64,000 bases of DNA, from positions 337,073 to 401,072 of the forward strand of contig JAQULM010000001.1 in assembly GCA_028718605.1 (NCBI GenBank), read 5' to 3'. The stretch's first letter is position 1. Every line of letters begins with the position of its first letter. The notes beneath the pieces were generated by a model. The model was not told the DNA's origin. It saw nothing but the letters and a program-made list of their open reading frames with translations, and did no database searches. The translations under genes and the position numbers were made by a program. This DNA is from Patescibacteria group bacterium (GTDB lineage: Bacteria; Patescibacteriota; Patescibacteriia; UBA10025; JAHIVO01). Below, one piece after another: positions 32,603-57,758 of this stretch.

Positions 32603-32607
32603 AGGCG

Positions 32608-34815: not shown

Positions 34816-34929
34816 TACTTTTCCTAATAATTAACAAAAGACCCGCCGCTCACCGCGATGGGCAAATTTTAATCCAACAAATTGTATTCGAACACCGCCG
34901 CACCGGCGCAAGATGCTCTGGTGCAAGTA

Positions 34930-39000: not shown

Positions 39001-42000
39001 CTATCAAACGTAGTATCGAGCGCGCCGGTCGTCAGCAACCGCTTTTCGATGCGCCAGCTCGTCGGGCTGGCGGGATTGAACGTCCGGCCAACGAGGTACA
39101 TAGACGTACCGTCAATCGCAATGCCGTACGCCGCATCACCGCTGCTGCTATAAAGTCGTCCAGTCCCATTAAAAGCGCCTGCTGTGCAAGCGGCAACCCC
39201 ATTGCACAAGTCACCGGTCGTTTTATTCCGTTTCTCAACAAACCAGTAGTCATCGAGAGGCTGCGCTGGTGTATTATTGTCGCGGATCCCTGAAATGTAT
39301 AAATAATTTGCGTCAACAGCAACATCATACGCAATCCACGTATCAGCCCCTCCTGAAATATGCCCATCGCCGTCAAAATCTGTAACAAGATCGCCGTTAT
39401 TGAGCCATCGCTTCTCGATCCACCAATTGTCTGCTTCGGTACTCCCAACCGTATACAGGTACGTCCCGTCGCTGGCAGCTGCGCGTCCCTGGGAGCTCTC
39501 AATGCCACCCTCAACGACCTGCCCGCCTGTGCCGAATGCAGAGCAATCGCGGGTGCTGAACTTGGTCTCGTCCCAAATAACGTTCTGGTTGCCCCAACGG
39601 TCGAGCTTCAGCATCGGGCCTTCGGACGGTTGAGTGTTTGATTCATACACGTTGTAGTATGGCGTCGCAGGATTTGATACCGCCTGTGTGCTGTACGCAG
39701 CAGTCACCCATCCGCCTGCACCACCATTGGCAGCGGGATCCCACTGCCGGAATCGGATATTCGCTGCTTCATTGGCATACCCCGAATCATAGTCCCCCCA
39801 TACCACTTCAGGGATATTATTCGCATCAAGCACGAGGGAAACTCGGCGCCCATAATAGCCTTGATTAGTATTCACCTGTAAATTCGTACGATCATCCCCA
39901 CTCATCGTAACCCATGCCCCTGCTCCAGAATCCCACCTGCGTAATAGGACTGCCGCCGGATCAAGCCATGCGATATACGGTACGCCTGATGTGCTCACGG
40001 CGAGTGAGGGCCGTGCCCCGTCAGGCAGCCAGTTTGCATCAGCGCCGGTCGGGTATGGCGATCCAGCGGGCCCAATATCGGCATTCACCGACACGTCTTC
40101 TCCTGATAAACCCGCAGTAACGTCATCGCTTGCTGTTACCCATCCGCCAGCGCCTGCATTCGCGTCCCCGTTCCAGCGACGGTAGAATATCTGATGGTTC
40201 ACTGCCGTGATATCCTGTTCCCAGGCAATGTGGGGCGTATCGCCATCAAGCGCGAGAGTCGGCATTCCTTTTGAGTCAGTCGGCGTACCGCTTACGTCAA
40301 GATTTGCTGAATTATTATTCATCGGAATCCAACCTGATCCCAAATCCTGCTTATAATTGATTGCCGAGGGCTCTCCCGGTATGCCAGCCCAGGGCCCTGT
40401 CCGATACACGATATGCTTGGTGCCAGACGCACCGATCTTGATCATGGGTGTTTGCGCAGGTGACGCTTGGAATAATTGGGTAATCCAATCTTCCGTTTCA
40501 GGATCCCAATATGTGTAATAGAGCGTGCCTCCCTCGCGCATATTATCGAGACCACCATCCTGCCACGCGATGTGCGGATCACCACTCGGATCAAGAGCGA
40601 GAGATATGGATAAAACGCCTTCCGCCGCACTCGTCACGCGTAAATTCGCAGCACTGCCCGGCGAATCGAATGCGTCACCCGATGCCGTTACCCATCCGCC
40701 TGAAACGAGTTTTGCATAGTACACTTCGTTTCGACCCGTATCAGGATCGATTCCGATCCACGCGACATGCTGGTTTCCGCTCCGATCAACCTCGAGCACT
40801 GCATTCGAACCCTTCAGCGGTCGGCGCGCAAGTCCGCTTCGCGTGACCTTTTCAGGTTCAAGCCATCGAGAATATATATTGAGGTCCGAATGTTCCGCGT
40901 CCCATCCCCACCCGAGCAAGCTGTACAGCTGAATCTCATTGGGATTGACGTCGGGATCGCCAAGGAATTGCTGGGAATCGATTTCAACGCCGGTCACTGT
41001 ATACGGTCCCGCTGTGCCTGCGCTGTTATCATACTGGCCACCGAGCTTAATCCAGCCCCAGTTACATGGCTCCGTCCCGCCTGTATGGCCGCAGGTCGTA
41101 TTCTCCCCGGCTTGCTTCACAGCGACGAGGCGCGCCCACCCCGTAACCTCGTGCGTCGTGCCATTGAAGTTGGCTGTCGCATACGGCCGACACTCGCCGG
41201 AAACAAGGCATGCGTCGCCGGTTTGACACGTCTCATAAATGCACTTCGGCTGCTCATCGCCGATAATCGGACACATTGAAATATCGGACTCTGTGCATTC
41301 AATATCACGATCACTGGAACAAACGCCGTACCGCTGGCCCGCTGCGCCGGTTGTGGTATAACAATACCCATACAAAACATTGCCGGGAGGCGTACCAGCG
41401 ACAGTAACACCAGCACTCGCCTCTTCTGCGGTCGTATCGATACATGTGTTCCCGGTACCGCATTCTGAGTCACCCGCACACCCGCGTTGGGAATCATTCG
41501 AACACACGCCTTCGAACAAGCTGATCCATCCGATTCCAACGCTGCTCGTAACGAAGTCTTTGCGGATGACTGACGTATAATACGGTGCTCCGCCACCGCC
41601 ATTATTCGCAATCCATACCGCATCATCCCCGAATACTGATTGCTGGGGACTGTTAAACTGGGGATTAGCCGCGCCGAGATTGGTATATGTCCTGACAAGC
41701 TGCCTCGTACGGATATCGATTTGATATATCTGGCTATCGGTCTGGTTATTGACCCACATGTACTTGCCGCTCGACGAAATGCCGGACATTGCCTGGCCGC
41801 CCGATGTCAGCACAATATTTGCAACCACCGCTCCCGCGCGATCCATGACAGTAACGCCATTGGTACGCGTTACCCAGATATTCGTGCCGTCGGAAGCGAT
41901 TCCCTCTAACATTGAATTCCCGATGGAATAACTCGCCACAGAGCCATCCACAATCGAAATGCGCGATACAGTGATGTCCCCGTTATTCGGCACCCAGACG

Positions 42001-45000
42001 TACCCCTGATCGTACCTCAACCAGTACGGATTGCTGCTCACGGCACACCGTGTCGGTGCGCCCGTAGGGACCGTGCCGTTACAGTTCAGCTCAGTACTAT
42101 CGCTCGTACGGATCCGGGCAACATTCGCCGTGTTGAAATTGGACACCCACAGGTCCCTGCCGTCGAACGTGATACCCCATGGCTGGCATACATCCGAACC
42201 GCATCCGGAAAGCTGCACCGACCCGCCCTGCCCGATAGGCGCAGCGGTATGTGTGACAGGATCAACTTTTAATACAATCCCGTCTTTCTTGCTGGCAATC
42301 CATAGGTAACCGTCTGCATACACGATCCCCTGCAGGTAGCAGTCCGCTGATGTGCATATTTCATACTCACCGGCAAGCGAAGCGTCTGCAGTGCGGAACT
42401 GGAGTAGCCGCCTGTTCTCGCGTGTCGTTACCCAGACATAGGGACCGCCGGGCGTATCTGAGTCGTACTCGACGCCGTTACCGGAGCCGTATGACTGTTC
42501 CCCTGCGGCAAGTGCCCGCCAGCTGTCCGCCAGGGCCTGTCCCGATGCCGACCACCCATATCCCTCGAGCGGATTGATATCGCGCTGCTCGTCGAAATCG
42601 GTATTAAGGCCCCAGTGCTTCCCGATCGAACAGCTATAATCGGTCTGGTCGTAACGATTCAGGCAGTTCATCGACACCCATCCGAGTGTCGAAGACCACG
42701 CCCATCCTACAATATTATTTTTTACGAGGAATAATGTCGCTTCGCTCCCGAATGCAGTCGCGAGCGAATCCTCATTCTCCGCCTTTACCTTGTAGTCATA
42801 TTTCAAGGACGCCTCAAGCCCCTCGATGATAGTGCCATCAAGATCTGTGCGCCAGTTGGGGCCGCTGGTTGCGTCGCAGGTGCCCCCATTACAATCAGCG
42901 CTGGTTGCGCAACTCGTGCCTGGTTTCGTTCCGCCGACGCAAGCTTTTGACTCGCGCACTGCCCAATGGCCTGACGTATCCCCGTCAACGCAGTCTTGGC
43001 TCGGGAACCAGTCAGCTCCATTGAATATGCAGTCCGCTTTATTCGTCTGCCAGTCGTCCTCCGAACAATACCCCCAGTCATCCGCGAGAGCAGCTTCACA
43101 GTCCGTCTCGTTCGTGAAGGCAGGGTTGCCGCACACACCCCAGTTGACCGTTGTCCTGCCGTCATTCAACCCGTCGTAGCCATCCGGGAATAAATATTTC
43201 GAATTCATTGTTCCGCCATCGTTGTACCGCGACACACAAACTGCATACTTCGTTATCGCCGGATTTTCATCCGAATCGCGCAGCGTCAACCTGACTGACG
43301 ACCCGCTTACCTGCCGCAACAACGGCCGAACCGGCGTATTCGCCCGCGTATACGCACACACGGGAGTATCAGGTTTGCTGGCAGTAATGTCATTCGTCCC
43401 ATCGGCGGCTGAACCAGTGCGATTCCGCGCCTGTACTTGGTAGCAGTATTCCACGTTCGGCACGAGACTGCTGTCAATGACTTGATTGCCGGTAGGGCGG
43501 CCAAAGCTTGTAAAGCCAGACTGCGCGCCGGCGCCTGAATGGCCGAGCGTTTCAAAAAATCGAATGCCGGAACTTCCGATCCCAATGTTTGAAAATGTCC
43601 CGAGTGCACGAACGATCATACTCGTCGGAGTGATATTCGCGGGCGGTATCTCGATGCCTGTCGCAGCCTCGATCGAATTCGCGGCTGATCCAATCGGAGA
43701 ACACTGCCCTTCACGCTCCCTGCTGTCTACGCCACATGCATACAGGTTATACGAAGCATTTGCTGCCATTGTCGTACATCTGCCCCCGCCGTCACAATCC
43801 CCGTCCACTGCGCAACTCGTTCCTTCTTCGGTGCCGCTAACGCAGACCCCTGTTTGCTTGCAGGTCCTGGCGATACTGTCCCCGCATGGCGGATTGCTCG
43901 TGCTGTAATGGTAATGGTCGACGGCCGTGCCAGCAGACTGGGTCCAGGACCAGTACAGCGGATATGTCGGCCCTGCCTCGATCGGATTGTTGGTGTGTAT
44001 CGGCCTCCCCGGAACGCACGGGGGGAGCGTGTCGGTTGCATTCCGAGTATAGTCGGATTCGAGCGTGCCCGATATACCCGCCGCCGCACTGATACGGATG
44101 TATTGCGTCGCTGCACTGCATGCCAGGCTCCGGAATGAAAGAGAAGTCCCGTCCGAAATCTGGTTCCAGACATTTGAATACTGGGTGCCGGTCGAATTGT
44201 CGTATGGCCGGATATTCGTCCATGTGGTTCCGTTAACCGAATACTGGTATTTATAGTATGCGCCTGCTGGGTTAGCTGACGAATCACTGAACGTCGTATT
44301 GCAGTAATACCCACGCGCTAAACTGTAATTGCATGCGATCGACGGATCATCCGGCGGCATCAGTGGCATGCATTCTACAACCTTCGGATAATCCGCCGGC
44401 CAATTGACAAAATATGGATCTCCACTGGGAAACGCATCGCCGTCCGGAAAATTATACGCAGCGTCCTCACCAACCTTATCTTCAAAATTCCTGCTAATTG
44501 ACCGGAACGTGAAGCATTTTCCAGGGCTGAAATACTCTTTTAATTCACGGGGTTCGCTGGATGACCAACCGCAGGAACACCATGGGCATGCACTTGCATA
44601 CGACTTACCCCAATCCGGGATGCGGGGCATGCCGCTGGTCGACTGCTCAGGAGAACATTCGCCGAAAAAGTACGTTTGCCCTTCATCATTTGTCACGGCA
44701 AACGCATAGTCGGTGCTCGATGGATTGTCAGGATATAAACCCGTGCCGGTATTCAGGTACACCTCGATCGATCCAGACGTGACGTCGCCGATCGTCATTG
44801 GCTGGGGATTTCTTGCCCGGCTATACCCCCACGCCCAGTCATTGTCCCAGTACACGTCCCCAACCGGATCCTGGTTATACTCCGGGCTCCGCAAGCTATC
44901 CCGGGAAAATAAACTTACCCCATATTGGCTATTTGGCGCTATGGCGGTTGCCGCTGTTTCGCCGGTGAGTGTCAGGGTGCCCGCACCGCACTGATAAACG

Positions 45001-47348: not shown

Positions 47349-49820
47349 TTAAAGCTCAGCACACGAAAAACTTTGGATCTTGCTCGATGAATCTAAAATA
47401 ATTCCCTTGATGAATGTCCCCGTTTGGCAATTAAACGACCCCGTGCCTGATACATTGACCGAGGATTCCGAGCCCCATTCATTGTTCGCCACTTTCAGGT
47501 CGGCTCCGACTGATACGTGGCCGCTCCGGGCGCACGTCCCGTCCCAGCTCGACTGGCCGAGCAAATTCTGGCAGTCACTGGCTGCCTCGCACGGCCGCGA
47601 ATAAAAATACATATTATTATAAAAGCAAACCGCTTGCGTATTAATATCAGCGGTACCGGTTATCTTGATATTGCCCTTCTGCACCGCGCTATTGAGGCTA
47701 TCGACATTGCATGTCTGGCCAGACGGGCAATTGGCACTATACATGCATTCCTCATACGGCGATCCGCCTGAGCATGTCCCAATATTATCTTTCAAATTAA
47801 CGACGCTGCTCGTACTCGTAAATGCGCTGCCCGTGCCTGCATAGATGCGGATGACCGACGTTCCGCTGTCCGAGGCATTCGTCGACCATATATACGTCCC
47901 GTCAAAAAGAGCACGCCAGGGGTGGAAATTCGTCGTGACTGTCTTGCCCAAGAAATCGGTATCCCGCAAGACGCATTGCCAGTCGTTACTGATACTTGTG
48001 CAATCAATATCATTGTGGCAGCTCTGCGTTGGGCCGTTACCAGTTGTATTGCAGAAACCAGCGTAACAGCTCCAACCAGCTCCATGGGCGGCAACGCAAT
48101 CCGCATCCGTCCTGCACTGGCCATTGTCAATGCGCGTACAGAGGCCCGAACGGATATCTGGTGAAAGCCGGAGCACGGTTCCATTTGTCGCTCCCGCAAC
48201 GCTCGTGTCATTCAATGTAACTAGCCATAAATTCGATCCCGTATAGACGATGCCTTTTGGCTCATGCCCATGATATTCGGTCCCCAGCCTGAGATCGAGA
48301 CGCGGATGGTCCGGGTCGTCGGGATTCTCGGCCCACAATCGTGTCAAGCGCTGCGTATTCCACCCCGAAACCCAAATGTATTCTCCATCAAACGTCATCG
48401 CGTCAGGGTACATGCTATTTGCGGCCCAGGTGCGCGCCTGGTGCTCCGGATCCGGCGTATTCGGGTCTTCAGCCCATAGCCGGATAACACGGTGCCCTGG
48501 TGGATCGTAATTATGCACTCCAACCCACATGTATTCCCCGTCAAACGCAAACGCACGCGGAGTATCGCCGTCGTCCGGGAGGGTATAAGTAATTCTATCA
48601 GCTGTATTCTCGGCATCGACACGGACAATGCTGCCAACTCCACCACCCTGGACCGCAGCGAAAATATATTTATGGGCGTTCAGGGTTGCGACTCCCACCG
48701 AATAAACATAATACGTACCGGCGGCTGCGCTGACCTGCACTGACTCGAGCGTTTCGCCGGACGTGCTCACGCGGATAAGGTATCCATCCTCGGTACCAGC
48801 CCAAATGTCTTTGCCGTCAAAGGCCATCCCATACAAGCGCGGGTGAGTTCCGCCGACGCTGTACGAAGCGACTTCAACACCATCAGATGCACGCAACTTA
48901 AATAGGTTTTTGCTGCGGTTCGCGCCCATGGTTCCGTAATAATCCGTATTGACCCAGATATACGTCCCATCAAAAACAGCCCTGCCATAATCGCCCGTAT
49001 CCACTGAAGTGTAGAACGGTCCGGACATTTGTCCCGCAGTGAACGGGACCGCTGAATATTGTATCGCGCTCGGTGCGAACCGCTTGGAAACCACGTCAGT
49101 GCCGGCACCGAGCATGCCATCAAAATATCCCGCCCATCCATTCGGCTTATTCTTCCCGTAGACCGCCGCTGCGTCTGCGGCTTCGGTTACCGCGTAGATC
49201 CCGTACCCCGACGCGCTCTCGCCGCGCACGCCCACGTTCGCATCGCTGACGCCGTACACCGCCCAGCCGTCCGCGCTCTCACGATACCCGTACACGCCCG
49301 CATCGGCCGCCATGCCTGCGTCACCGACAATCCCGCTCCCTGAACTGCTTATAGCCTGCACGGGAACATCCGTTGCACCCGCGACTTCCACCGTGCCGCC
49401 GTCAACTTTCAACTTTGTGTTCGGAGTCCATACGTCCGTGCCGATGCCTACCCACGACTGAACGCTATTCGCATACAGCGTGTCGCCGTCAACACGCAAC
49501 GTGTCTGCATACGTATACTCAGTTGAAAATTTCGCTCCAGGTCCTTCCACGTCGAGCGGCTTTTCCGACGTAAAGATCAGCGAGCTTTCCTCGGTGATGC
49601 CATAATCCGGATCGATCTTCAAGTACCCGCTCTTTGCCTGGTCTTCTGCGCCGGCCGTCAACGGCTGGTAAAAAACACCGGCAGGCGGCGGGGCTTTCGG
49701 CTCGATCCACTCTGCGAGCGCTACCCGTGCGCCAAACGCAACCCCAATGCCAATGACAAGCGCAACGCACAGGAGCGCCTCTCGAGTTATTCGTGAAAAT
49801 TTTCCTCGCAGCTGTTTCAT
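47349..49820 (-). CDS. large secreted beta-propeller repeat protein (823 aa from ATG 49820)
   Basis: Signal peptide 'LLCVALVIGIGVAFGARVALA'. It carries the conserved N-terminal module shared with the 1950- and 691-aa proteins and at least six 'FDG(T/E/K)YIWV...V(I)R(L/I)' repeats. The track N-terminus overlapped the upstream gene; the ATG at 49820 removes that overlap. Confidence 0.75.
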   Translation of the reverse strand: MKQLRGKFSRITREALLCVALVIGIGVAFGARVALAEWIEPKAPPPAGVFYQPLTAGAEDQAKSGYLKIDPDYGITEESSLIFTSEKPLDVEGPGAKFSTEYTYADTLRVDGDTLYANSVQSWVGIGTDVWTPNTKLKVDGGTVEVAGATDVPVQAISSSGSGIVGDAGMAADAGVYGYRESADGWAVYGVSDANVGVRGESASGYGIYAVTEAADAAAVYGKNKPNGWAGYFDGMLGAGTDVVSKRFAPSAIQYSAVPFTAGQMSGPFYTSVDTGDYGRAVFDGTYIWVNTDYYGTMGANRSKNLFKLRASDGVEVASYSVGGTHPRLYGMAFDGKDIWAGTEDGYLIRVSTSGETLESVQVSAAAGTYYVYSVGVATLNAHKYIFAAVQGGGVGSIVRVDAENTADRITYTLPDDGDTPRAFAFDGEYMWVGVHNYDPPGHRVIRLWAEDPNTPDPEHQARTWAANSMYPDAMTFDGEYIWVSGWNTQRLTRLWAENPDDPDHPRLDLRLGTEYHGHEPKGIVYTGSNLWLVTLNDTSVAGATNGTVLRLSPDIRSGLCTRIDNGQCRTDADCVAAHGAGWSCYAGFCNTTGNGPTQSCHNDIDCTSISNDWQCVLRDTDFLGKTVTTNFHPWRALFDGTYIWSTNASDSGTSVIRIYAGTGSAFTSTSSVVNLKDNIGTCSGGSPYEECMYSANCPSGQTCNVDSLNSAVQKGNIKITGTADINTQAVCFYNNMYFYSRPCEAASDCQNLLGQSSWDGTCARSGHVSVGADLKVANNEWGSESSVNVSGTGSFNCQTGTFIKGIILDSSSKIQSFSCAEL

Positions 49821-49825
49821 AGTAT

Positions 49826-52800
49826 CTATAAGTCTCGGCATTGTAATTGGCTCCCTGGTCCGCTCCGGTTGTACCAAACGTCGTACGCCATGCATTTGTT
49901 GCATTCACCATTAGAATCGTTGTAGTATTCGCACTGCGGAAATGCATCTGGGCAATCTGCGTTGGAATCATCGCTCGCGCAGATATGCCCGCCGCCACAA
50001 CCCAGCGCATCCTCTATTGTTCGCTCCCACCATACGACATGCGTCCACCCGAGGCTATCAATCGCCACCTTTGGCGCGCCCGACTGCAGGGTCGGCGTCT
50101 GGCTGACATTTACATTCGGGTCAGCAAAACCACTGCCAGAATTGCCAGAAAGAGTCACCCAGTTGGTGCCGTTCCACCAGCGGTAGTACACTTCCCGCGG
50201 GCTGCCGCCCACTCCCGTATTATCTGTATACGCAATATGCGGCTGGTTGTTTACGATACGAACGGACGGGAAGAACGACCACGGGTCGGTACTGTCGTTA
50301 ACCCGCAGGTTCGTGCTGTTCGTCTGGCCGGTAACAGTCACCCAGTTGGTGCCGTTCCACGTCCGGTAAAAAATATACTGCCAGTCCACCCAGGCAATAC
50401 CCGGCGTATTATCGGAATACAGGCTGAGTGCGGAATATTTTGCGGAAAAATTGGTTGGCGGTTCGCCTGCTCCGAGTATATTCGCCACATTTTCATTGAC
50501 CTTGACGTTTGCACCGGCGGTTCCGGGTGTTGCATCACCGCTGATAGTCACCCAGCTGGTGCCGTTCCACCGCCGGAAATAAATCTGGCTGTAATCGCCG
50601 GCCGCTCCGTGCCTCCCTTCGGTCCAAACAATATTGGGCCGTTGATTTGGCGCTTCATTGCCGAGTGCGAGCATAGGATATTCTGATCGCTCAGTGCTAT
50701 AATCAGTGCCCGTGTTGCTTACGACAAGATTTGCGTCAAGCCTCGTATCGGCCCACGTCCCTCCTGTGCCCCAGGCACCGGATACCGTTACCCATGCGCC
50801 GTCGCCACCGTTGGCGGCAGGATCCCACCGCCGGTAAGAGATCTCATTATCATTTGGATTGGGTTCATCCGTATCAGTAGACATAAACGCAATATGCGGT
50901 ATCCCATCCCTGTCTACCTTCAGCGAAGGATTATACCCCCCGCCGACAGTCAAACCGCACCGCTCGAGGGTCGGGTAGCTCGGATAATCATCGCAGTAAC
51001 TCCAGTCAAAAACTGTATTCGGCTCCCCCCGCGCGCCCCGCGGTACATTCTGCGCTGTTTCCCACTGGCCACCATTCTCATCCGGATCCCAGCGCAGGTA
51101 GTACATCCCGCCGCCCTCGTTAACCCAGGTAACGTGGGGATTATTATCAGCGTCAAGCGCGAGTGTGGGAGTGCTCGCTCCTGGTTCTGCGGAAGAGTCA
51201 TCTTCGGTTTCTAAACAATTCGAAACATTGGTAATTTGATCGATTCCGCTCGGATCGTATTCCTGGCCGGCAGCATTTTCCCAGCGGTTGTCCTCGCTGT
51301 CCCACCGCACATACAATACTTCGAACGAATGCTCCCCGTCGTCCTGCACACACGTTGGATCCAAGTTAACCCATGCGATCCTGGGATCTCCGTCTGACCC
51401 TATCTCAATAGACGGCCCGTTGTACTTGCTCTCCACACTATCACGCGCCGCACCATCAGTACGACTTACGTTTTGTGCGGTATCCCACCTCGGTACGCTC
51501 GATAGAGTGATGCCTTTCGCGAACTCACCGGCAACGCAGCTATCACCGAAATAGCTCATGTCATCACTTGTACCCCCCCAGGCATTTGCAGACACAACGA
51601 GGTCACCCTCACACGTCCCTGCGCCGCACTCGCTGTCCTGCGTACACGCGACATCCGCGTTGTTGCTGCAATGGCTCAGCACTGTGAGGTCATTGCCGAA
51701 TGAAGCTGTCCCTGCGATAGAAATCGCACCTTGCTGGATATTCCTGTCAGATATGCCTGATAGGTACACCGAACTTGCAAGATCCGATGGCCGGTCCGTG
51801 CCGCCTGCCTGGAACTTGCGGAGCGTGTACTTGTCAGAGCTCCCGTCGAGAGCGGTGTGGCAGCTGCCCGCGAGCCAAACAGAGCTCCCGTCATACACGA
51901 GCCCGACTGCGCCACAGTAGTCGCCGAAATCAACGCTCTCTTTGGTCTCGCCCGTGGCGGCACTCATTCTCGTCAGATGCATATCATTGGACGACGTTTC
52001 CTCGCTGGTATCAGCTGCGCTCGAGCAGCCAGGATCCGGCTGGCCGGAACAGCCCGGCGATCCCACGGCGCCATCGTAATCGCACAGCCCATTGCCGTCA
52101 TTGTCTATGCCATCAGCGCATTCAATATCCGTCGTGGTGCCATAGTAATCGCTGCTGTCACCCTCGTGCAAGTCGTACGGATCCTGGCATTGCGGATCCG
52201 GCGGCAAACTATTACAACCGCCATAATCGCACGTCCCATCACCATCATTATCAATCTCGTCAGCACACTCGCGATGATTATTCCAGTCAAATGAAGAATT
52301 ATGCGCTGCCCACACATACGTACCGTCAAACAAAAGCTGGTCCACGCGCGCATAGACAATATTTTGAATATTTTGAGAAATACACGTACTGCTCGAACCG
52401 CAATCAATGTTCGAACACTCTCCGGGTGCCGTGCAATCCGCGTCAGATGCGCAGTAAAGATTCGTATTGGTGCAACGGCCTGGCTCAGTATATATCTTGG
52501 ATTTGCCGGCAATCGGGCAGGTCATTGTGCCGTCGCTGCACCCGAGCAGATCAATCTTATAGATTGCGTATCCCTGGCTATCCGCGTACCGCAGGCCGAG
52601 CCACGCGTACGTACCATCATATACGATCGCTTGGATGTTCCCCGCGAGCGCCTCGGGCAGCACTTTGTACGGCCCGGTGACTGCGCCGGTTGCAATGTTA
52701 ATTCTTGACAGGCTATCGGCACCTGTTGCCGTATCCGAGCGGGTTGTATGTGAAAACCATGCGTACCCATTTGCGATCATGAGCTTGTTTGGCTCTTTGA

Positions 52801-55678
52801 GGCTGCCGCCGGCAGTATAGGAAGAATACTCCGTGACCGTGCAGGTACCGGGGCTGCCGGCAACGCACGACTGGAGATCTACTTTCTGCACTTTATTGTA
52901 ATTATCCTGCGCCAGCCATAGGTTGCGGCCGTCAAAGCCGATATCGGAGCCGCTGCTCCTGGTAAGGGGCAAAACCCAATTATATTTTCCAATGACTGAT
53001 CCATCCCGCGGATCAATTTTCACGAGCATCTCGGCAGCTGACGCATCTTGAATAACCCAAACGTAGGTACCGTCAAAAAATGCGTACTTCGGATCATTCA
53101 CGTTCCCGTAGTCGCCAACTTTCGTACCGTCAGCGGCACGATACGCGCTAATGCTGTCCGCGTAGTTATTCGTTACCCAAATATTCGTCCCGTCAAACGC
53201 GATATCGCTCCGCGTCGTACCCTTAATCGAAAACGCTGTCGTGGTATATGGACTATTAATTTTACTCCGCGCGACCGTACCCGCGTACAACTGGGTCGTC
53301 CAAACATATGGCCCGCCTTTCGTCACACGGTCAAAATCAAAACCCCACACACCGCCGCTGAGGGGATAGGTGTGGTCGACAGTCTCTGATCCAATAGTAA
53401 ACTTTGTGATTTGCTCAGTGCCATAATTAGAAGCTACCCAGAGGAACGGACCGCCGCTCGAAACTGAATCGTACATAACCTGCGTATTCCCATATCCGTA
53501 TTGTGAATTGCTCGCATACAAGTACTCTTCGGCGATCAAGCCGGTTGCATTATTAAACCTGCCGAACCCCCGGAATGTGCCGGGTTGCCTACCCGAAGGA
53601 TTATGTGCAACCCAGAGCTGGTTATTCACGGGATCGTACGCCAGATCTGCATTGCCGCGGGCTGGTCCGGTGCAATAGTAATCCTGCAACGAGGCATTCA
53701 GAGGATCGGCTGCATTAATTTTACCGATACCTTCACCCACCGAAGCGGCCGAATACAGCGGACCGGAAGAAAACCAAATAGTCGTACCGTCAAATTCAAT
53801 GCCTGCCGCCATGCCAAACGGCCGCACGACGAGGCGCTCGTCATCATCGGGTCCGACATAATTTGCATTGCCGGGTACCGGATCATAGGGGCTCGATCCG
53901 GGCGTCGCTGTTGATAAATTACATTCAATATCAGGTGCTTTCCATGTATTACCGCATCCGCTCAAGCACGTTGCCTGGGTTGTGCAGTCGGCATCCGTGC
54001 AGGTCGTGCCGTCCCAGGTGCCTCCGGTGCACGTACCGCACTGCGCTTGGGTACACGCCTCGATGCTACATGTACCACCCCGCCATTCTGGAACAAAACC
54101 ATACTTATCAGCGCCGGCAGCAAGGCATGTTGCCTCATCGGTATACGTTTGATCAGTGCACGTACCCCCGGTCCACGCCGCCGCCGCATTGGCCGCCGTA
54201 CAAGCAGCCTGATCCGGAACACTGTCAAACACGCATAAGCCCGAATCGATATTCCCGTCAGCATCATTATCGAGCAGGTCAGTGCATTGATTGCCGACTT
54301 GCGACTGGCTTGAATACCGGTCCTGGTCAAGCGTTACGCATTGGCTGCGTGTGATCGGCGGAATCTCAACATACGTGCCGTAATCAGCGCTCGATTCATT
54401 GACGTTCAAGCGCGAAATGCTGTACGATTCGCCGATCTGATTTGCAGTCCAGATGTACGGGCCGCCTGCAGTTGCATCATCGTATACAAGATCCATCGCG
54501 TAGTTTCCGATCCCTGGGGCGTCCGCGGTCCAAAAATTCAAAATTTCAGGATTATTGGCATCCGGCGTAATCCGTGTCACTGCAGGATCCCACCAGCTCA
54601 AACCGCCATCCAGCCAGATGTAGCCATCTGCATAAATCATATTTGAAAAGCCATGGTTCGTTCGATCCACCGCTTCGCCATACACGGGACCGTATGGCTC
54701 AAACTCATTGATCAGCTGGCCGTTCACCGGATCGATGACAAATATCGCCGAGTCGTCAAAGTTCGCTACCCACACGTACCCATTGACATAGAGCACTGAT
54801 TCCGGCTCTGTGTTGCGGGCCGGCTCAATCTTCTCAAGCTCCCAGTTTGCGCTGTAGGGAACTGTAGAATATGACATGTCTGACTGGACAAATTTCCGGC
54901 CGGTGACATGCTCGGAACCGTACAAACGCTGTGCGAAATAGCCTGCCCAGGCACCGAGCCCTTTTGCGCTCGCGTATACGCCGGCAACAACATTAGTGCC
55001 AGGAATGGCTTCCCCAGCAGATTCGCCAGACACCGCGGACGCGGAAACGCTCTCAGCCATGATGCCCACGCCACCACCCGCATTCAGCCCCCACACGCCA
55101 GGGCCGGAAACGCTTGAGCCGTATACGGACGCCGCTGATGCGGCAGACGATGAGCCATAGACGCCATAACTCGCGTCCGAAGCTGCGTAGAGTGCGCTGC
55201 CAGTGCTTATCGGGCTTGCAGTGCTGCCGACGCGAAGCGTCCCATTCACAATATCGACAAGCGCCATCGGCGCATCAGTACCAATTCCAACCCGATTAAA
55301 TTCCGGCTGGACGTACAAAGTATCCGTATCGACTATGAGGGTACCGCTGCCTGACACATTTTCGCTTGCTGGTATCTCCAATGTCGTCATGGATACCGGG
55401 CGCGGACCGTGGACTTCAAGCGGATAGCTGATGCTCGGGAGGGGGTCAGCGGGATTATACAGGGGGTCGAGAAGAAGGCGCCCTTTCTTCGCCTGTGAAT
55501 CTGGTCCGATATTTATCGGCGCGTATATATTGCCCTCTGGCGCTGGCGCAGTCGGTTCTTGCCACTGTGCATGCACAATGTGCGACCCTGCGATGAATGC
55601 AATCACGATAAACGAAAAGCCTATGCACGTGAGCGCGGTTTTTGTGCTGCGCCGAAATGTAAGCGTAATTTTTTTCAT
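49826..55678 (-). CDS. giant secreted repeat protein (1950 aa from ATG 55678) with beta-propeller repeats, Cys-rich DNDGDG metal-binding-like blocks and WNGTxWVT repeats
   Basis: The track start at 55702 is TTG; the ATG at 55678 (MKKITLTF...) is used. Signal peptide ends 'HIVHA'. It has the shared N-terminal module, 'FDGT(N/Y)(I/V)WV' repeats, 'C.D.IDNDGDG.CDY' blocks and four 'RWNGTxWVTxSG' units. Confidence 0.8.
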   Translation of the reverse strand: MKKITLTFRRSTKTALTCIGFSFIVIAFIAGSHIVHAQWQEPTAPAPEGNIYAPINIGPDSQAKKGRLLLDPLYNPADPLPSISYPLEVHGPRPVSMTTLEIPASENVSGSGTLIVDTDTLYVQPEFNRVGIGTDAPMALVDIVNGTLRVGSTASPISTGSALYAASDASYGVYGSSSAASAASVYGSSVSGPGVWGLNAGGGVGIMAESVSASAVSGESAGEAIPGTNVVAGVYASAKGLGAWAGYFAQRLYGSEHVTGRKFVQSDMSYSTVPYSANWELEKIEPARNTEPESVLYVNGYVWVANFDDSAIFVIDPVNGQLINEFEPYGPVYGEAVDRTNHGFSNMIYADGYIWLDGGLSWWDPAVTRITPDANNPEILNFWTADAPGIGNYAMDLVYDDATAGGPYIWTANQIGESYSISRLNVNESSADYGTYVEIPPITRSQCVTLDQDRYSSQSQVGNQCTDLLDNDADGNIDSGLCVFDSVPDQAACTAANAAAAWTGGTCTDQTYTDEATCLAAGADKYGFVPEWRGGTCSIEACTQAQCGTCTGGTWDGTTCTDADCTTQATCLSGCGNTWKAPDIECNLSTATPGSSPYDPVPGNANYVGPDDDERLVVRPFGMAAGIEFDGTTIWFSSGPLYSAASVGEGIGKINAADPLNASLQDYYCTGPARGNADLAYDPVNNQLWVAHNPSGRQPGTFRGFGRFNNATGLIAEEYLYASNSQYGYGNTQVMYDSVSSGGPFLWVASNYGTEQITKFTIGSETVDHTYPLSGGVWGFDFDRVTKGGPYVWTTQLYAGTVARSKINSPYTTTAFSIKGTTRSDIAFDGTNIWVTNNYADSISAYRAADGTKVGDYGNVNDPKYAFFDGTYVWVIQDASAAEMLVKIDPRDGSVIGKYNWVLPLTRSSGSDIGFDGRNLWLAQDNYNKVQKVDLQSCVAGSPGTCTVTEYSSYTAGGSLKEPNKLMIANGYAWFSHTTRSDTATGADSLSRINIATGAVTGPYKVLPEALAGNIQAIVYDGTYAWLGLRYADSQGYAIYKIDLLGCSDGTMTCPIAGKSKIYTEPGRCTNTNLYCASDADCTAPGECSNIDCGSSSTCISQNIQNIVYARVDQLLFDGTYVWAAHNSSFDWNNHRECADEIDNDGDGTCDYGGCNSLPPDPQCQDPYDLHEGDSSDYYGTTTDIECADGIDNDGNGLCDYDGAVGSPGCSGQPDPGCSSAADTSEETSSNDMHLTRMSAATGETKESVDFGDYCGAVGLVYDGSSVWLAGSCHTALDGSSDKYTLRKFQAGGTDRPSDLASSVYLSGISDRNIQQGAISIAGTASFGNDLTVLSHCSNNADVACTQDSECGAGTCEGDLVVSANAWGGTSDDMSYFGDSCVAGEFAKGITLSSVPRWDTAQNVSRTDGAARDSVESKYNGPSIEIGSDGDPRIAWVNLDPTCVQDDGEHSFEVLYVRWDSEDNRWENAAGQEYDPSGIDQITNVSNCLETEDDSSAEPGASTPTLALDADNNPHVTWVNEGGGMYYLRWDPDENGGQWETAQNVPRGARGEPNTVFDWSYCDDYPSYPTLERCGLTVGGGYNPSLKVDRDGIPHIAFMSTDTDEPNPNDNEISYRRWDPAANGGDGAWVTVSGAWGTGGTWADTRLDANLVVSNTGTDYSTERSEYPMLALGNEAPNQRPNIVWTEGRHGAAGDYSQIYFRRWNGTSWVTISGDATPGTAGANVKVNENVANILGAGEPPTNFSAKYSALSLYSDNTPGIAWVDWQYIFYRTWNGTNWVTVTGQTNSTNLRVNDSTDPWSFFPSVRIVNNQPHIAYTDNTGVGGSPREVYYRWWNGTNWVTLSGNSGSGFADPNVNVSQTPTLQSGAPKVAIDSLGWTHVVWWERTIEDALGCGGGHICASDDSNADCPDAFPQCEYYNDSNGECNKCMAYDVWYNRSGPGSQLQCRDL

Positions 55679-55682
55679 AATG

Positions 55683-57758
55683 CTAGAGCGGCCGGCATTC
55701 AATTTTCGTCACCCTGCCAGATGCATCCACCGATATATCCGTAAGGAAGTGCCCGGTTGGGCACGTTTGCGTCGAATTCCCAGGAAAAGGATTAATCCCA
55801 TCGCCAAGAGTGTCTCCTACGGTTTCTCCGCCCCACACATTATTCTGTGCGCTCAGATCACCATCCGCGATAAAGCCCATCCCGACTGTCGCCGACCCAT
55901 CGATCGAGAAAGAGCCTTTCTGCTCAGTGAGCGGATCAATGTTCTGGAGAGTGAGTGTTCCACTCAAATCCGTGGTGCCATACCCAACGCCTGAGTACCT
56001 CTTCGTCAGCCCGGTTGGTCCCGAAACCCAGAGAGACGATCCGTCAAAGCGCATACCCGTTGGGCTGAACCCGAGTGAAAATGTCTCCCGATCATTCGGA
56101 TCGGCGGCCTTGAGCGCTGAAAGCGTCCCGGTGCCTGCATCCGCAGTCCAAATATGCACGCCGTCAAAGGCGATCGCAACGGGCGAATCACTAGTGGCGA
56201 ACGACCCATACGGAACCGGGACCGGGAAACACCCGCCGAGATCCTCACTGCTTCCGCCGACACAGTCGGAATTGACCGCGCATGATTTCCAGTCGAGCGT
56301 AGAAGGATCTTTCAGGGAGCATATCCTGCTCCCAGAAAGGTAAAATCGCGTCACTGAATCGTCAGCCCCATTGGTAACCCAGTAATACGCATTGTCATAA
56401 AAAATATCAGTCGGGCTATTGCCGATGACATTCTGGTAGATTGCCGCATCGGCCGACGAAGGGTTGAGCGCAACGACATACCCACCGTCATCGCCTGACG
56501 CGATTGCGTACAGCATATCGCCATTATAAATAATTCGGCCAACCTGCACGTCTTCAGGGGTAACCTCAACGATTCCCCCTGCGACAAGCCCGCAGTTTGG
56601 CGTATCCGCATCGTAGCGGATTTTTACGATCACCCCTTCACCGGTATCTGCCGTCGCCGTTACCCAGTAAAAACGGTTTAATTCGTGATCTTGCACCGTA
56701 CCCTGGCCGCTGAATGCGATTCCACGAGGATCTGACACGGAAATCGATGTTAGGTCAAGCGAGCAGCGTACATCACCTGACACCGGATCGATTCTGCGTA
56801 CGGTATTATCCGCAGCAACTGCCCAGAGGGCGGTGCCATCATAGATCACGTCTGCCACTTCCCCGCCAAATGAAACATCGAGGAGAGAAAAACCATCGGG
56901 AACCCGTACCTTCATAAGCGTATTCCCTCGGCTCAGCCACACGTTGGTACCATCGTAGTAGCGTACCGTGTTCGGGCCAATCGTAAGATCCATGAGCTCT
57001 TGGCCAACAGTATAGGAGACCATGGAACTCTGGAGCTGTGTCGGGACAAATTTCGCGCCCACCACATCACGCGACGACTCGAGGAGTCCCCCAAAATAAC
57101 CGGCCCATAAGCCAGCGGTATTCTCATTCGTGCCATAGATAGCATACCCACTGTCGCTGAATGCACCGATTGCACTGTATAAATATCCAGTGTTTTCGCC
57201 CGACACCGGTGTGTTCAGGGGATTCACTGCCCAAATGCCATAATTATCCTCCCCATATGCCACTCCCCGAACTCCGGATTCCGTTCCAGTTCCCTTTATT
57301 GCCTCAGTTTCGGTACTCTCAGCATGCACGCCTTCCCCCGCCGCATTATCAACCGTCATCGGGCCGCCACTCACCTCTAGTTTGCTCCCGTCGAGCCCTA
57401 AGCACGGGCCGATACAAACCCGATTTGCCTCTGGGTCAACATATAAGGTATCACCGCTCTCGCTCACCTTCAGCTTCTGATCAATGATGGCTTGATTGAT
57501 CTGGGCGCCTTCCCCTTGGACCTCAAGCTGGTATTTAAATGGTCCCGATGCATCGTTGGTGCCGAGCCGAAGCGCGCCAGTCTTCACCTGATTGTCATCC
57601 CCGATCGTGATATACGGAACAGTGTTATCTCCAGGCGGGGCAGCAGTTGGGGTATCCAGCGCAGCAGATACGCCCACGGCGATTGACAGCCCAAGTACGC
57701 CGAAACAAAAAAATAGGCAAAAATATGCCGATCTATTGATTTTTTGCCTATTCTTCAT
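55683..57758 (-). CDS. large secreted beta-propeller repeat protein (691 aa from ATG 57758)
   Basis: The track start at 57779 is GTG. The ATG at 57758 (MKNRQKINRSAYFCLFFCFGVLGLSIAVGVSA) gives a signal peptide. It has the shared N-terminal module and 'YDGTNVWL', 'YDGTALWAV', 'FDGVHIWTA', 'FDGSSLWVS' repeats. Confidence 0.75.
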   Translation of the reverse strand: MKNRQKINRSAYFCLFFCFGVLGLSIAVGVSAALDTPTAAPPGDNTVPYITIGDDNQVKTGALRLGTNDASGPFKYQLEVQGEGAQINQAIIDQKLKVSESGDTLYVDPEANRVCIGPCLGLDGSKLEVSGGPMTVDNAAGEGVHAESTETEAIKGTGTESGVRGVAYGEDNYGIWAVNPLNTPVSGENTGYLYSAIGAFSDSGYAIYGTNENTAGLWAGYFGGLLESSRDVVGAKFVPTQLQSSMVSYTVGQELMDLTIGPNTVRYYDGTNVWLSRGNTLMKVRVPDGFSLLDVSFGGEVADVIYDGTALWAVAADNTVRRIDPVSGDVRCSLDLTSISVSDPRGIAFSGQGTVQDHELNRFYWVTATADTGEGVIVKIRYDADTPNCGLVAGGIVEVTPEDVQVGRIIYNGDMLYAIASGDDGGYVVALNPSSADAAIYQNVIGNSPTDIFYDNAYYWVTNGADDSVTRFYLSGSRICSLKDPSTLDWKSCAVNSDCVGGSSEDLGGCFPVPVPYGSFATSDSPVAIAFDGVHIWTADAGTGTLSALKAADPNDRETFSLGFSPTGMRFDGSSLWVSGPTGLTKRYSGVGYGTTDLSGTLTLQNIDPLTEQKGSFSIDGSATVGMGFIADGDLSAQNNVWGGETVGDTLGDGINPFPGNSTQTCPTGHFLTDISVDASGRVTKIECRPL

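What the first reader, a model, noticed from the sequence alone, without database searches (positions are those of the whole stretch)
47349..57758. Conserved roughly 250-aa N-terminal module shared by three of the giant proteins
After their signal peptides, the 691-, 1950- and 823-aa proteins share an ordered series of motifs:
- 'W.EP.APP.G..Y.P...G.DSQ.K.G.L.LDP';
- 'LEV.G';
- 'DTLYV.P..NRVGIGTD';
- then a Gly/Tyr-rich stretch of repeated 'G.YG.S....A.YG' units ending in '(L/A)WAGYF';
- then '(R/K)(K/R)F(V/A).(S/T)' just before the first beta-propeller repeat.

The 3742-aa protein lacks this module. A conserved leader-proximal domain on otherwise divergent giant proteins often acts as a sorting, anchoring or assembly domain, for example a pilus-docking or cell-wall-anchoring module. 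It does not match any motif I can name with confidence.
Basis: seen in the sequence. Interest (0 to 1): 0.55.

Follow-up and report, generated by a model that had tools for sequence, protein, structure and literature searches.

The report
Shared fibre-like stalk on pilus-linked proteins
Three neighbouring secreted proteins of an uncultured ultra-small bacterium (Patescibacteria) start with the same ~230-residue module, a family-specific N-terminal cap followed by phage-tail-fibre-like repeats. The trio sits with a giant protein directly upstream of the type IV pilus genes, which suggests an undescribed cell-surface attachment apparatus.

Summary
The 691-, 1950- and 823-aa proteins share a homologous 219-240-aa module directly after a Sec-type signal peptide (pairwise BLASTP E 1e-17 to 1e-26). 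The 3742-aa protein lacks it.

An exhaustive HMMER search found at least 68 representatives carrying the full module. It is always leader-proximal, and every named member is a hypothetical Patescibacteria protein. They form three orthogroups matching the three window genes. Six genomes keep the gene order group 1, group 3, group 2, giant. The window and one other genome show the whole cassette running into pilM; five further contigs show giant-pilM adjacency.

No Pfam, NCBIfam or PDB domain covers the module, but it is not featureless. It consists of:
- a 36-aa cap (WxEP...PP.GN...QAK.G.L), its most conserved part;
- one copy of a widespread phage tail-fibre repeat, whose VGIGTxxPxxxL core matches only the trimeric beta-helix "capping loop" of Bdellovibrio MAT fibres in the PDB;
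- five or six Gly/Tyr units of 10-12 residues;
- a WAGYF...KF.P junction to an NHL-type beta-propeller.

AlphaFold2 models the propeller confidently but not the module as a monomer.

The best reading is a short, probably trimeric, fibre stalk whose cap docks at the cell surface and displays variable propeller heads. I class it as a new variant of a known kind.

The parts
55683..57758 (-). Gene 1 of the trio (691 aa; orthogroup 1): signal peptide, N-module, NHL-type beta-propeller, small Cys-containing C-terminal domain
57666..57758 (-). Predicted Sec-type signal peptide of the 691-aa protein (aa 1-31). In orthogroup 1 the hydrophobic core is itself conserved (KWA[IF]F[SC]LFFC)
   Evidence: AF2 helix 7-27. 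Cleavage after AxA is inferred from the sequence
57009..57665 (-). N-module of the 691-aa protein (aa 32-250): cap 57558-57665, fibre repeat 57351-57485 (C-x-G-x-C variant of the loop motif), Gly/Tyr units 57075-57347, WAGYF/KF.P tail 57009-57074
49826..55678 (-). Gene 2 of the trio (1950 aa; orthogroup 3): signal peptide, N-module, propeller and Cys-rich inserts, C-terminal BNR-like extension
54851..55570 (-). N-module of the 1950-aa protein (aa 37-276): cap 55463-55570, fibre repeat 55226-55348 (RVGIGTDAP), Gly/Tyr units 54917-55219, tail 54854-54916. The signal peptide is 55571-55678
   Evidence: weak phrog_5906 hit at aa 107-201
47349..49820 (-). Gene 3 of the trio (823 aa; orthogroup 2): signal peptide, N-module, propeller with Cys-rich inserts, small C-terminal domain
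49038..49715 (-). N-module of the 823-aa protein (aa 36-261): cap 49608-49715, fibre repeat 49383-49517 (WVGIGT), Gly/Tyr units 49107-49376, tail 49038-49103. The signal peptide is 49716-49820
36099..47327 (-). Giant 3742-aa protein, fourth gene of the conserved cassette. It has an N-terminal TM helix and lacks the module. Its N- and C-terminal parts are conserved in other genomes
26872..36078 (-). Type IV pilus genes directly downstream on the same strand (20-nt gap): pilM, a 682-aa unknown, pilO, an fn3 protein, pilB, a response regulator, pilC, a pilin
   Evidence: The same order is found in L010, L011 and L013
57901..57930 (-). Best sigma-70-like promoter match (TTGACA-18-TACAAT, 11/12, TG extension), in the divergent intergenic region upstream of gene 1
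   Evidence: This is a consensus match only; site counts in the region are not above the shuffle expectation

Best explanation
The shared region is the conserved, cell-proximal base of a family of Patescibacteria surface fibres or adhesins encoded with the type IV pilus (T4P) machinery.

Proposed mechanism:
1. Sec export and cleavage at AxA expose a 36-residue Pro-rich cap ((E/Q/A)WxEPxxxPPxGN...P.N.G..QAK.G.L.L).
2. The cap is followed by one tail-fibre-type repeat (L.VDTDTLYVD....RVGIGT..P...L.V.GG), five or six Gly/Tyr units of 10-12 residues, and a WAGYF.G.L...KF.P..LQ.S..P(Y/F)T junction.
3. I propose that the repeat-containing part folds as a short intertwined, most likely trimeric, beta-helical stalk like phage tail fibres and Bdellovibrio MAT fibres.
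4. The stalk oligomerises the protein and holds the variable beta-propeller heads away from the cell.
5. The cap is the element that docks onto a conserved partner at the envelope: the pilus machine, the co-encoded giant protein, or the wall.

Shown:
- homology of the three modules, and the family and its three orthogroups;
- the mosaic make-up of the module;
- the motif-level match to solved trimeric fibres;
- the T4P-linked operon;
- the conservation gradient along the proteins.

Inferred: trimerisation, orientation (N-terminus proximal), signal-peptide cleavage, and the identity of the docking partner.
For: (1) Real homology: BLASTP E 1e-17 to 1e-26 against at most 22 bits for shuffles.

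(2) Family: 1046 hits at E<1e-3 and 67 at E<1e-30. Sixty-eight of the best 150 carry the full module right after a leader. Every member that has a source name is a Patescibacteria hypothetical.

(3) Mosaic structure:
- Profile positions ~70-112 equal one unit of a ~39-aa tandem repeat that occurs 5-29 times in other large proteins.
- The Gly/Tyr part matches 9-13 overlapping stretches in P0096 and P0139.
- The cap alone heads P0099 (cap plus 29 repeats) and P0141.
- Some family members carry ~400-aa inserts between sub-elements.

(4) That repeat belongs to phage tail-fibre families: PHROG 9942, 5342, 18345 and 3269 'tail fiber/tail protein', and phrog_5906, with E down to 2e-48. The 1950-aa protein itself hits phrog_5906 at E 2.6e-4.

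(5) PDB matches:
- A repeat profile made only from module sequences has the Bdellovibrio MAT fibre Bd2133 as its only significant hit (8OND, E 4.5e-8); the next two, both weak, are also MAT fibres (8OJN 0.13, 8OL4 0.14).
- A mixed profile gives 8OND 5e-10, 8OJN 7e-5, 8OML 1e-3 and MyRF 0.18.
- The matched segment is the published 'capping loop' motif of an intertwined trimeric beta-helix (PMC10769870).

(6) MAT fibres have the same layout: a signal peptide, then a conserved beta-rich N-domain presumed to bind the producer's surface, then a variable tip. Their authors raised a possible interplay with T4P.

(7) AF2 with 41 sequences models the propeller at pLDDT >90. The equally well-aligned module stays at 32-60 with short periodic strands. 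This is typical of obligate intertwined oligomers modelled as monomers.

(8) Conservation among orthologues is cap 54-56% > module 47% > rest 35-40%. Segment lengths are fixed within each orthogroup. The heads vary: NHL, Sortilin/BNR, Reg_prop and Kelch hits.

(9) Operon: 4-21-nt gaps between genes. The cassette trio-giant is conserved in six genomes. Giant-pilM adjacency is seen on five further contigs, one of which is the same contig as a complete trio.
Against: - Only one copy of the fibre repeat is present, and the PDB match covers only ~20-35 residues (individual stretches have i-E 0.1-48). This is motif-level similarity, not domain-level homology.
- The Gly/Tyr part, the cap and the tail have no solved or annotated relative.
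- No trimerisation chaperone (S74) or coiled coil is present.
- Low AF2 confidence is also compatible with disorder or with simply too shallow an alignment.
- Oligomeric state, cleavage of the leader and the docking partner were not tested.
- The leader is long and conserved in orthogroup 1, so it could stay as a membrane anchor instead.
- All genomes with the cassette also share neighbouring ClpB-M48-LemA genes (LemA ~80% identical). Part of the synteny may therefore reflect a fairly narrow clade rather than functional coupling.
Confidence: 0.45

Rival explanations
1. Pilus-tip or pilus-priming adhesins. The three proteins would be PilY1/PilX2-like non-pilin components. Their N-module would plug into the pilus (tip complex or base) rather than into the cell envelope, and the propellers would bind the host cell.
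For: - The genes are in one tight same-strand cluster with pilM-pilO-pilB-pilC-pilin, in the window and in other genomes.
- They have beta-propeller heads and non-prepilin leaders.
- In the cultivated Saccharibacterium N. lyticus, PilX2 has a seven-bladed propeller and a non-canonical signal peptide, and is the proposed T4P-2 adhesin, compared by its authors with PilY1 (PMC12206443).
- No minor-pilin genes were seen in the cluster, so something else may prime the pilus.
Against: - There is no Pfam PilY1/PilC hit and no N_methyl or pilin-like helix.
- In PilY1 the propeller is the C-terminal domain (as cited for P. aeruginosa in PMC12206443); that it is the pilus-proximal part is my recollection, not checked here. 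In the trio the conserved part is N-terminal and fibre-like.
- The cap and the repeats also occur on proteins that look like plain fibres (P0099, P0141).
- Three paralogues plus a giant is not a known tip-complex composition.
Confidence: 0.2
2. Heterotrimer. The three paralogous modules, one from each gene, co-assemble 1:1:1 into a single stalk that carries three different heads.
For: - There are three ancient orthogroups, with 18, 28 and 21 representatives among the 68.
- The gene order is fixed in six genomes, with 4-5-nt gaps suggesting coupled translation.
- Each orthogroup keeps its own variant of the loop motif (VC[IV]GPC, WVGIGT, RVGIGT) and its own fixed segment lengths.
Against: - The solved MAT fibres described in PMC10769870 form symmetric trimers of a single chain; that phage tail fibres of this type are also homotrimers is from my own knowledge.
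- Module lengths differ between paralogues by 7-20 residues (219/226/240 in the window), which is awkward for an in-register beta-helix.
- No co-variation or complex prediction could be run.
- Fixed order can simply be inherited.
Confidence: 0.12
3. Monomeric spacer or envelope-lattice element. The module would be a non-oligomerising beta-solenoid or semi-disordered Gly-rich linker, or part of an S-layer-like coat. It would merely span the wall, with retention provided by the uncleaved hydrophobic leader.
For: - The leader is long (~22 hydrophobic residues) and unusually conserved in orthogroup 1 (38% identity).
- AF2 gives no confident fold for the module.
- The propeller profile weakly hits YncE-type 'surface layer protein' propellers in the PDB (E ~2e-3).
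Against: - Strict column conservation and fixed lengths argue for a defined fold.
- Conserved AxA sits at the end of every leader, followed within 1-2 residues by the most conserved motif.
- AF2 usually models monomeric beta-helices well at this alignment depth.
- The loop motif is known only from intertwined trimers.
Confidence: 0.15
4. The similarity is only compositional (Gly/Ala/Ser-rich) and the 'module' is an artefact.
For: The Gly/Tyr part is 19% Gly, 14% Ser and 13% Ala. Word-based homology search was swamped by such words.
Against: - Composition-corrected BLASTP gives E 1e-17 to 1e-26, against at most 22 bits for shuffles.
- There are 39 invariant columns.
- Sixty-eight full-length relatives show ordered motifs.
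Confidence: 0.01

Closest known systems
Bdellovibrio bacteriovorus MAT (mosaic adhesive trimer) fibres (Caulton et al. 2024, PMC10769870; PDB 8OND, 8OJN, 8OML, 8OL4)
   Same: - Sec signal peptide followed at once by a conserved beta-rich N-terminal region with no PDB homologue, presumed to hold the fibre on the producer cell.
- The V-G-x-G/N-small-x-x-P-x-x-x-L 'capping loop' motif. In the PDB only MAT fibres, and weakly MyRF, match the module's repeat.
- A constant base with variable adhesive heads.
- The producer lives by attaching to other bacteria.
- Their authors mooted a link to type IV pili.
   Different: - MAT N-domains are ~130 aa and are followed by hundreds of residues of beta-helix. 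Here there is one repeat plus a Gly/Tyr array (total ~230 aa), then a beta-propeller per chain.
- There is no S74 chaperone.
- The genes come as a fixed trio with a giant protein inside a T4P operon.
- Homology of the cap to the MAT N-domain could not be tested, because no MAT N-terminal sequence was obtainable (one search found nothing).
Phage tail-fibre repeat families (PHROG 9942, 5342, 18345, 3269 'tail fiber/tail protein'; phrog_5906)
   Same: The ~39-aa unit L.VDTNTLYVD..NNRVGIGT..P...L.V.G is the same repeat. The 1950-aa protein hits phrog_5906 at E 2.6e-4.
   Different: Phage and virus proteins carry the unit in tandem arrays of 3-29 copies and have no signal peptide. The Patescibacteria module has a single copy embedded between a cap and Gly/Tyr units. 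There was no tblastn match to 50,697 phage genomes.
PilY1 (Pseudomonas, Myxococcus) and PilX2 of Nanosynbacter lyticus T4P-2 (PMC12206443)
   Same: Large secreted beta-propeller proteins with non-prepilin leaders, encoded with T4P genes and proposed as the adhesive component.
   Different: There is no sequence or Pfam relationship. The propeller type is NHL/PknD-like rather than PilY1- or RCC1-like. The conserved element here is an N-terminal fibre-like module that those proteins lack.

Membership tests
Bdellovibrio MAT fibre family | Signal peptide immediately followed by the conserved ~130-aa beta-rich MAT N-terminal domain | tested here: inconclusive
   The layout is the same: a leader, then a conserved beta-rich region. 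Sequence homology to the MAT N-domain could not be tested. The PDB holds only C-terminal MAT fragments, and the search seeded with a Bd3182 fragment returned nothing.
Bdellovibrio MAT fibre family | Capping-loop motif V-G-x-G/N-small-x-x-P-x-x-x-L of the trimeric beta-helix | tested here: met
   The module-only repeat profile A5 gives 8OND (Bd2133) at E 4.5e-8 and 8OJN at 0.13. The mixed profile A4 gives 8OND 5e-10, 8OJN 7e-5 and 8OML 1e-3. The motif definition comes from PMC10769870. Orthogroup 1 carries a C-x-G-x-C variant.
Bdellovibrio MAT fibre family | Long intertwined homotrimeric beta-helical shaft | not testable with these tools
   Only monomer AF2 was available, and the module scored pLDDT 32-60. 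Only one repeat unit is present, so a long shaft is not there.
Bdellovibrio MAT fibre family | C-terminal S74 chaperone-protease (S74 subgroup) or an alternative trimeric tip domain (NS74 subgroup) | tested here: not met
   No Peptidase_S74 hit in the three proteins or in 41 relatives. The heads are beta-propellers.
Phage tail-fibre repeat proteins (PHROG 5906/9942/5342) | Tandem array of the ~39-aa L.VDTNTLYVD..NRVGIGT..P...L.V.G unit | tested here: not met
   There is a single unit per module. Only the 1950-aa protein reaches phrog_5906, at E 2.6e-4; the other two give no PHROG hit.
PilY1 / PilC tip adhesins | PilY1-type C-terminal beta-propeller (Pfam Neisseria_PilC family), with an N-terminal vWA-like region in many members | tested here: not met
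   No such Pfam hit at E<=0.1. The propeller profile matches NHL/PknD/Vgb-lyase types.
PilY1 / PilC tip adhesins | Encoded in a T4P gene cluster next to minor pilins | tested here: inconclusive
   A T4P cluster is present. However, no minor-pilin genes were seen between the trio and pilM; there is only one pilin, downstream of pilC.
Type IV pilins / pseudopilins | Class III leader with G|(F/M)TLxE N-methylation motif and a long hydrophobic alpha-1 helix | tested here: not met
   No N_methyl hit. The leaders end in AxA and are followed by a Pro-rich segment.
Sortase-anchored (LPXTG) wall proteins | C-terminal LPXTG, hydrophobic stretch and a positively charged tail | tested here: not met
   The C-termini read ...IECRPL...LQCRDL and ...FSCAEL, with no hydrophobic tail.
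Catalogued adhesin domains (cadherin, Big, fn3, YadA head) | Significant Pfam or NCBIfam match over the module | tested here: not met
   There are no hits on residues ~30-280 of any of the three proteins, nor any family attributable to the module in 41 relatives.

The most novel reading that the evidence does not exclude
The trio and the giant protein would form a Patescibacteria-specific, pilus-coupled attachment organelle. The three paralogous N-modules would co-assemble into one heterotrimeric stalk. Its caps would dock on the T4P machine or on the membrane-anchored giant protein, presenting three different propeller heads for host recognition. The result would be a cellular, heteromeric counterpart of a phage tail fibre.
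Probability: 0.12. Interest if true: 0.75.

Novelty: new variant of a known kind. Interest (0 to 1): 0.5.

Why it matters
Every cultivated Patescibacterium lives attached to another microbe (PMC12206443), and how they recognise and hold hosts is largely unknown beyond the pili themselves. This family gives a concrete, conserved candidate set: three propeller-headed proteins with a common base plus a giant protein, co-transcribed with the pilus motor.

It also links these proteins, through a solved structural motif, to the fibre adhesins of the predator Bdellovibrio and to phage tail fibres. That points to a common building principle for 'grabbing' other bacteria.

The 36-residue cap is a defined, testable handle for finding the envelope partner. 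The module profile can be used to annotate what are now hypothetical proteins.

Tried and rejected
1. Word-seeded homology search with the module profile gave one irrelevant hit, because Gly/Ala-rich words swamped the candidate list. The exhaustive HMMER search solved this.
2. AF2 with the three-sequence alignment was useless (pLDDT 30).
3. AF2 of the full 691-aa protein with 41 sequences resolved the propeller and the C-domain but not the module. Fold searches on the module would therefore be meaningless, and Foldseek returned only generic propellers.
4. A search seeded with a reconstructed Bd3182 fragment, meant to fetch full-length MAT proteins, found nothing. The MAT paper's supplements held no sequences.
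5. A search with the giant's N-terminus returned only itself and a fragment.
With the three-sequence alignment it gave only three loci.
7. tblastn of the module against phage genomes gave no match.
8. phmmer of Gly/Tyr-repeat proteins (P0001, P0096) against the PDB gave nothing.
9. hhalign of the low-confidence C-terminal segment (aa 585-691) against the N-module showed no relationship (probability 0.3%). The idea that both ends are the same fibre element is rejected.
10. The idea that the 941-aa neighbour is a pilin was rejected from its N-terminal sequence.
11. Literature searches for the motif or the family found no description.
Full report
**Setting**

The window comes from a Patescibacteria (CPR) metagenome-assembled genome. 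The three proteins are identical to NCBI MDD5040042-44 ('MAG: hypothetical protein PHY34_02740/45/50, Patescibacteria group bacterium').

On the minus strand the genes run 691 aa (55683-57758), 1950 aa (49826-55678), 823 aa (47349-49820) and 3742 aa (36099-47327). They are separated by 4, 5 and 21 nt. After a further 20 nt come:
- pilM;
- a 682-aa unknown;
- pilO;
- an fn3 protein;
- pilB;
- a response regulator;
- pilC;
- a pilin.

Divergently upstream lie a 177-aa membrane protein, LemA and an M48 peptidase. The two best promoter-like matches of the region fall in the 157-bp divergent spacer. These are consensus matches only.

Yes.
- The module alignment has 39 invariant columns at 31-40% identity.
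- Composition-corrected BLASTP gives 65-89 bits (E 1.5e-17 to 2.5e-26). Two hundred shuffles of each partner never exceed 22 bits.
- A profile of the module finds only these three ORFs among 488 six-frame ORFs of the window, and nothing in the giant protein.

**A family, not a local duplication**

The word-seeded search failed. An exhaustive HMMER scan of 1.84 billion cluster representatives gave 1046 hits at E<1e-3 and 67 at E<1e-30.

Sixty-eight of the best 150 carry the whole module (at least 195 of 230 profile positions). In nearly all it starts about residue 30-45, directly after a basic n-region, a ~20-residue hydrophobic core and AxA; the exceptions are truncated or mis-started gene models. 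These proteins are 490-2100 aa long. Every member that carries a source name is a 'hypothetical protein' (once 'sialidase family protein') of a Patescibacteria group bacterium.

The 68 modules fall into three clusters, each containing one of the window proteins:
- group 1 with the 691-aa protein (18 representatives);
- group 3 with the 1950-aa protein (28 representatives);
- group 2 with the 823-aa protein (21 representatives).

So the triplication is old.

Six independent genomes show the same order group 1 -> group 3 -> group 2 -> giant, with the ClpB/M48/LemA/177-aa block divergently upstream where the contig reaches that far. They are the window, L001, L002 (the same genome as L008 and L009), L003, L004 and L005.

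**Link to the pilus genes**

Contigs usually break inside the giant gene, so I searched metagenome contigs with the window's PilM. All five confirmed loci have a g3742-like C-terminus directly upstream of pilM. Those that extend far enough continue with the same pilO-fn3-pilB-RR-pilC(-pilin) order.

L011 lies on the same JGI contig as L008, and the coordinates abut. That genome therefore has the whole cassette trio-(small insert)-giant(4004 aa)-pilM...pilin. In L012 a module-protein C-terminus precedes a shorter giant and pilM.

One caveat applies. These genomes also share flanking housekeeping genes (LemA ~80% identical). The clade sampled may be narrow, and part of the synteny may be inherited rather than selected.

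**Anatomy of the module**

I cut the 68-sequence alignment into sub-profiles and searched with each. This shows a mosaic of five parts:
1. A cap of 36 residues: A|(E/Q/A)WxEPxxxPPxGNxxxP(L/I)(T/N)xGxxxQAKxGxLxL.
2. A short 'LEVxG' linker.
3. One unit of a ~39-aa repeat: L.VDTDTLYVD....(R/W)VGIGT..P...L.V.GG.
4. Five or six Gly/Tyr units. The spacing peaks at 10 and 12 residues.
5. A tail, WAGYF.G.L....DVV..KF.P..LQ.S..P(Y/F)T, which abuts the propeller.

The parts are separable:
- P0099 has the cap followed by 29 repeat units.
- P0141 has cap, one unit and Gly/Tyr units.
- In P0096 and P0139 the Gly/Tyr sub-profile matches 13 and 9 overlapping stretches.
- P0033, P0075 and P0093 carry ~400-aa inserts between sub-elements.

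Within each orthogroup, segment lengths are almost invariant (219-223, 226-230 and 231-240 residues in total). Among orthologues the cap is the best-conserved part of the whole protein (54-56% mean identity). The module averages 47% and the propeller and remainder 35-40%.

**What the parts resemble**

No Pfam, NCBIfam or (with one weak exception) PHROG model matches the module in the window proteins or in 41 relatives.

The repeat unit, however, is the building block of many non-Patescibacteria proteins that match the profile 5-25 times. These proteins hit PHROG 'tail fiber protein' families 9942, 5342 and 18345, 'tail protein' 3269, and phrog_5906, at E down to 2e-48. The 1950-aa protein itself reaches phrog_5906 at 2.6e-4 over residues 107-201.

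Against all PDB sequences:
- A repeat profile built only from module sequences returns Bdellovibrio MAT fibres as the top three hits: Bd2133 8OND at E 4.5e-8, Bd3182 8OJN at 0.13 and Bd2439 8OL4 at 0.14.
- A mixed profile gives 5e-10, 7e-5, 1e-3 (Bd1334) and 0.05, followed by myelin regulatory factor.

The aligned stretch is what Caulton et al. describe as the 'capping loop' consensus of an intertwined trimeric beta-helix. It is shared with S74-type phage fibres and MyRF (PMC10769870).

The same paper states that all 21 MATs have a conserved ~130-aa beta-rich domain immediately after the signal peptide. That domain has no PDB homologue. The authors presume it binds the predator's own surface, and they raise possible interplay with type IV pili. 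This is the closest known architecture.

I could not test whether the Patescibacteria cap is homologous to the MAT N-domain, because no MAT N-terminal sequence could be retrieved.

**Structure prediction**

With three sequences AF2 failed.

With 41 full-length relatives, the 691-aa protein gave:
- a leader helix (7-27);
- a propeller at pLDDT >90 (250-590);
- a small C-terminal domain at ~85 (650-691);
- only 32-60 for the module, despite its being the best-aligned part, with a series of short strands.

The propeller is generic by Foldseek. By profile it is NHL/PknD/virginiamycin-lyase-like. A well-conserved beta-rich region that a monomer prediction cannot settle is what one sees for intertwined fibre segments. 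This is suggestive, not proof.

**Interpretation**

The evidence fits a short fibre base:
- a stalk made from tail-fibre-type elements, probably trimeric;
- a family-specific N-terminal cap as the conserved docking surface;
- a variable propeller head, with NHL, BNR/sortilin, Reg_prop and Kelch hits among relatives.

Fibre parts, N-terminal conservation and a constant base with variable heads all parallel phage fibres and MAT fibres. In both of those the N-terminus is the attached end.

I commit to this model at about 0.45. The main rivals are:
- a PilY1/PilX2-like pilus-associated adhesin whose module plugs into the pilus (0.2; supported by the operon and by PilX2 of N. lyticus);
- a heterotrimer of the three paralogues (0.12);
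- a monomeric spacer retained by an uncleaved leader (0.15).

A purely compositional artefact is excluded.

**Novelty**

I found no description of this family, its cap motif or the trio-giant-T4P cassette in the searchable literature, and no curated model covers it. Its components are recognisable fibre elements, so I rate it a new variant of a known kind (cell-surface fibre adhesins) rather than categorically new.

Noticed in passing
window 55683-55850, 47349-47520 and about 51700-51850 (C-terminal ~55 aa of the 691- and 823-aa proteins; about aa 1280-1330 of the 1950-aa protein): There is a second shared module at the other end: ...L.LQ......Q.G...ISGS...G....V.GDL....N.WGG...........G...C(P).G.F.K.I..D.......I.C(R).L-stop. 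Two Cys are conserved in more than 90% of 41 relatives. AF2 models the last ~40 residues at pLDDT ~85, but residues 593-641 score low. It is not related to the N-module (hhalign probability 0.3%). In the 1950-aa protein it lies mid-protein, and the protein again ends in CRDL.
   Followed up: partly
window 57666-57758; relatives P0006, P0008, P0010, P0015, P0026 and others: The signal peptides are themselves conserved, which is unusual. Orthogroup 1 has K-W-A-[IF]-F-[SC]-L-F-F-C (38% mean identity over the leader). Groups 2 and 3 have K-x-A-[LI]-x-C-L-x-F. This may be a specialised export or retention signal, or a leader that stays in the membrane.
   Followed up: partly
window 57351-57485 and orthogroup-1 relatives: Orthogroup 1 replaces the VGIGT..P loop motif by V-C-[IV]-G-[PS]-C-L. 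This gives two conserved cysteines (C-x-G-x-C), possibly a disulfide or a metal site. Groups 2 and 3 keep WVGIGT and RVGIGT.
   Followed up: no
window 49826-51500 (aa ~1395-1950 of the 1950-aa protein); L012 4992-6353: The BNR-like C-terminal extension of the 1950-aa protein is absent from its orthologues, whose tblastn matches stop at about aa 1394. In L012 it is 38% identical (E 8e-79) to a block inside the giant protein. This indicates domain shuffling between the trio and the giant.
   Followed up: partly
window 36099-47327; L001-L005, L008, L010-L014: The giant protein has an N-terminal TM helix. Its first ~280 aa (28-40% identity) and its C-terminal portion, up to the last third (36-52% identity over q1473/q3063/q3543/q3686-3742 in different loci), are conserved in relatives, while the middle is poorly conserved. 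Its length varies (~3000 to 4382 aa). Assemblies often break inside it: in one NCBI assembly the gene is a 483-aa partial at a contig end.
   Followed up: partly
window 57915-60018 and L001, L002, L003, L005, L008: A divergent block, 177-aa membrane protein / LemA / M48 peptidase (then ClpB and a double-zinc-ribbon/phosphoribosyltransferase-like (DZR_2, Pribosyltran) protein in the relatives), is conserved upstream of the trio in every genome whose contig reaches that side. LemA is 80-87% identical while the trio is 30-45% identical.
   Followed up: partly
L008/L009 16292-16705: In one relative a 137-aa 23S_rRNA_IVP (four-helix-bundle) gene is inserted between the third trio gene and the giant gene.
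   Followed up: no
window 20001-26000: G+C drops to 0.41-0.43 against ~0.52 elsewhere. The drop runs over a stretch of glycosyltransferase, methyltransferase and ABC-2 transporter genes next to the pilin gene. This may be a laterally acquired surface-polysaccharide or glycosylation cluster.
   Followed up: no
window 47349-49820 and 49826-55678 (e.g. CTRIDNGQCRTDADCVAAHGAGWSCYAGFCN; ECADGIDNDGNGLCDYDG): Cys-rich and DNDGDG-type (calcium-binding-like) inserts interrupt the propeller regions of the 823- and 1950-aa proteins. They fall in the parts that do not align with orthologues.
   Followed up: no
window 60333-63158: A 941-aa protein has a cytoplasmic N-terminal helical motif, one TM helix, a T2SSG-like domain at aa 551-628, TSP3 repeats and a Calx-beta domain. 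It has no prepilin leader. Its N-terminus is conserved next to M48 in L003.
   Followed up: partly
window 49821-49904: The ORF of the 823-aa protein could start 84 nt further upstream (851 aa) and would then overlap the end of the 1950-aa gene. Homologues and the NCBI model support the 823-aa start.
   Followed up: yes
L003 (CAYPXF010000005.1): A contig carrying the complete trio-giant cassette is deposited as 'uncultured Gammaproteobacteria bacterium'. Given its gene content, this is probably a mis-binned or mislabelled Patescibacteria contig.
   Followed up: no
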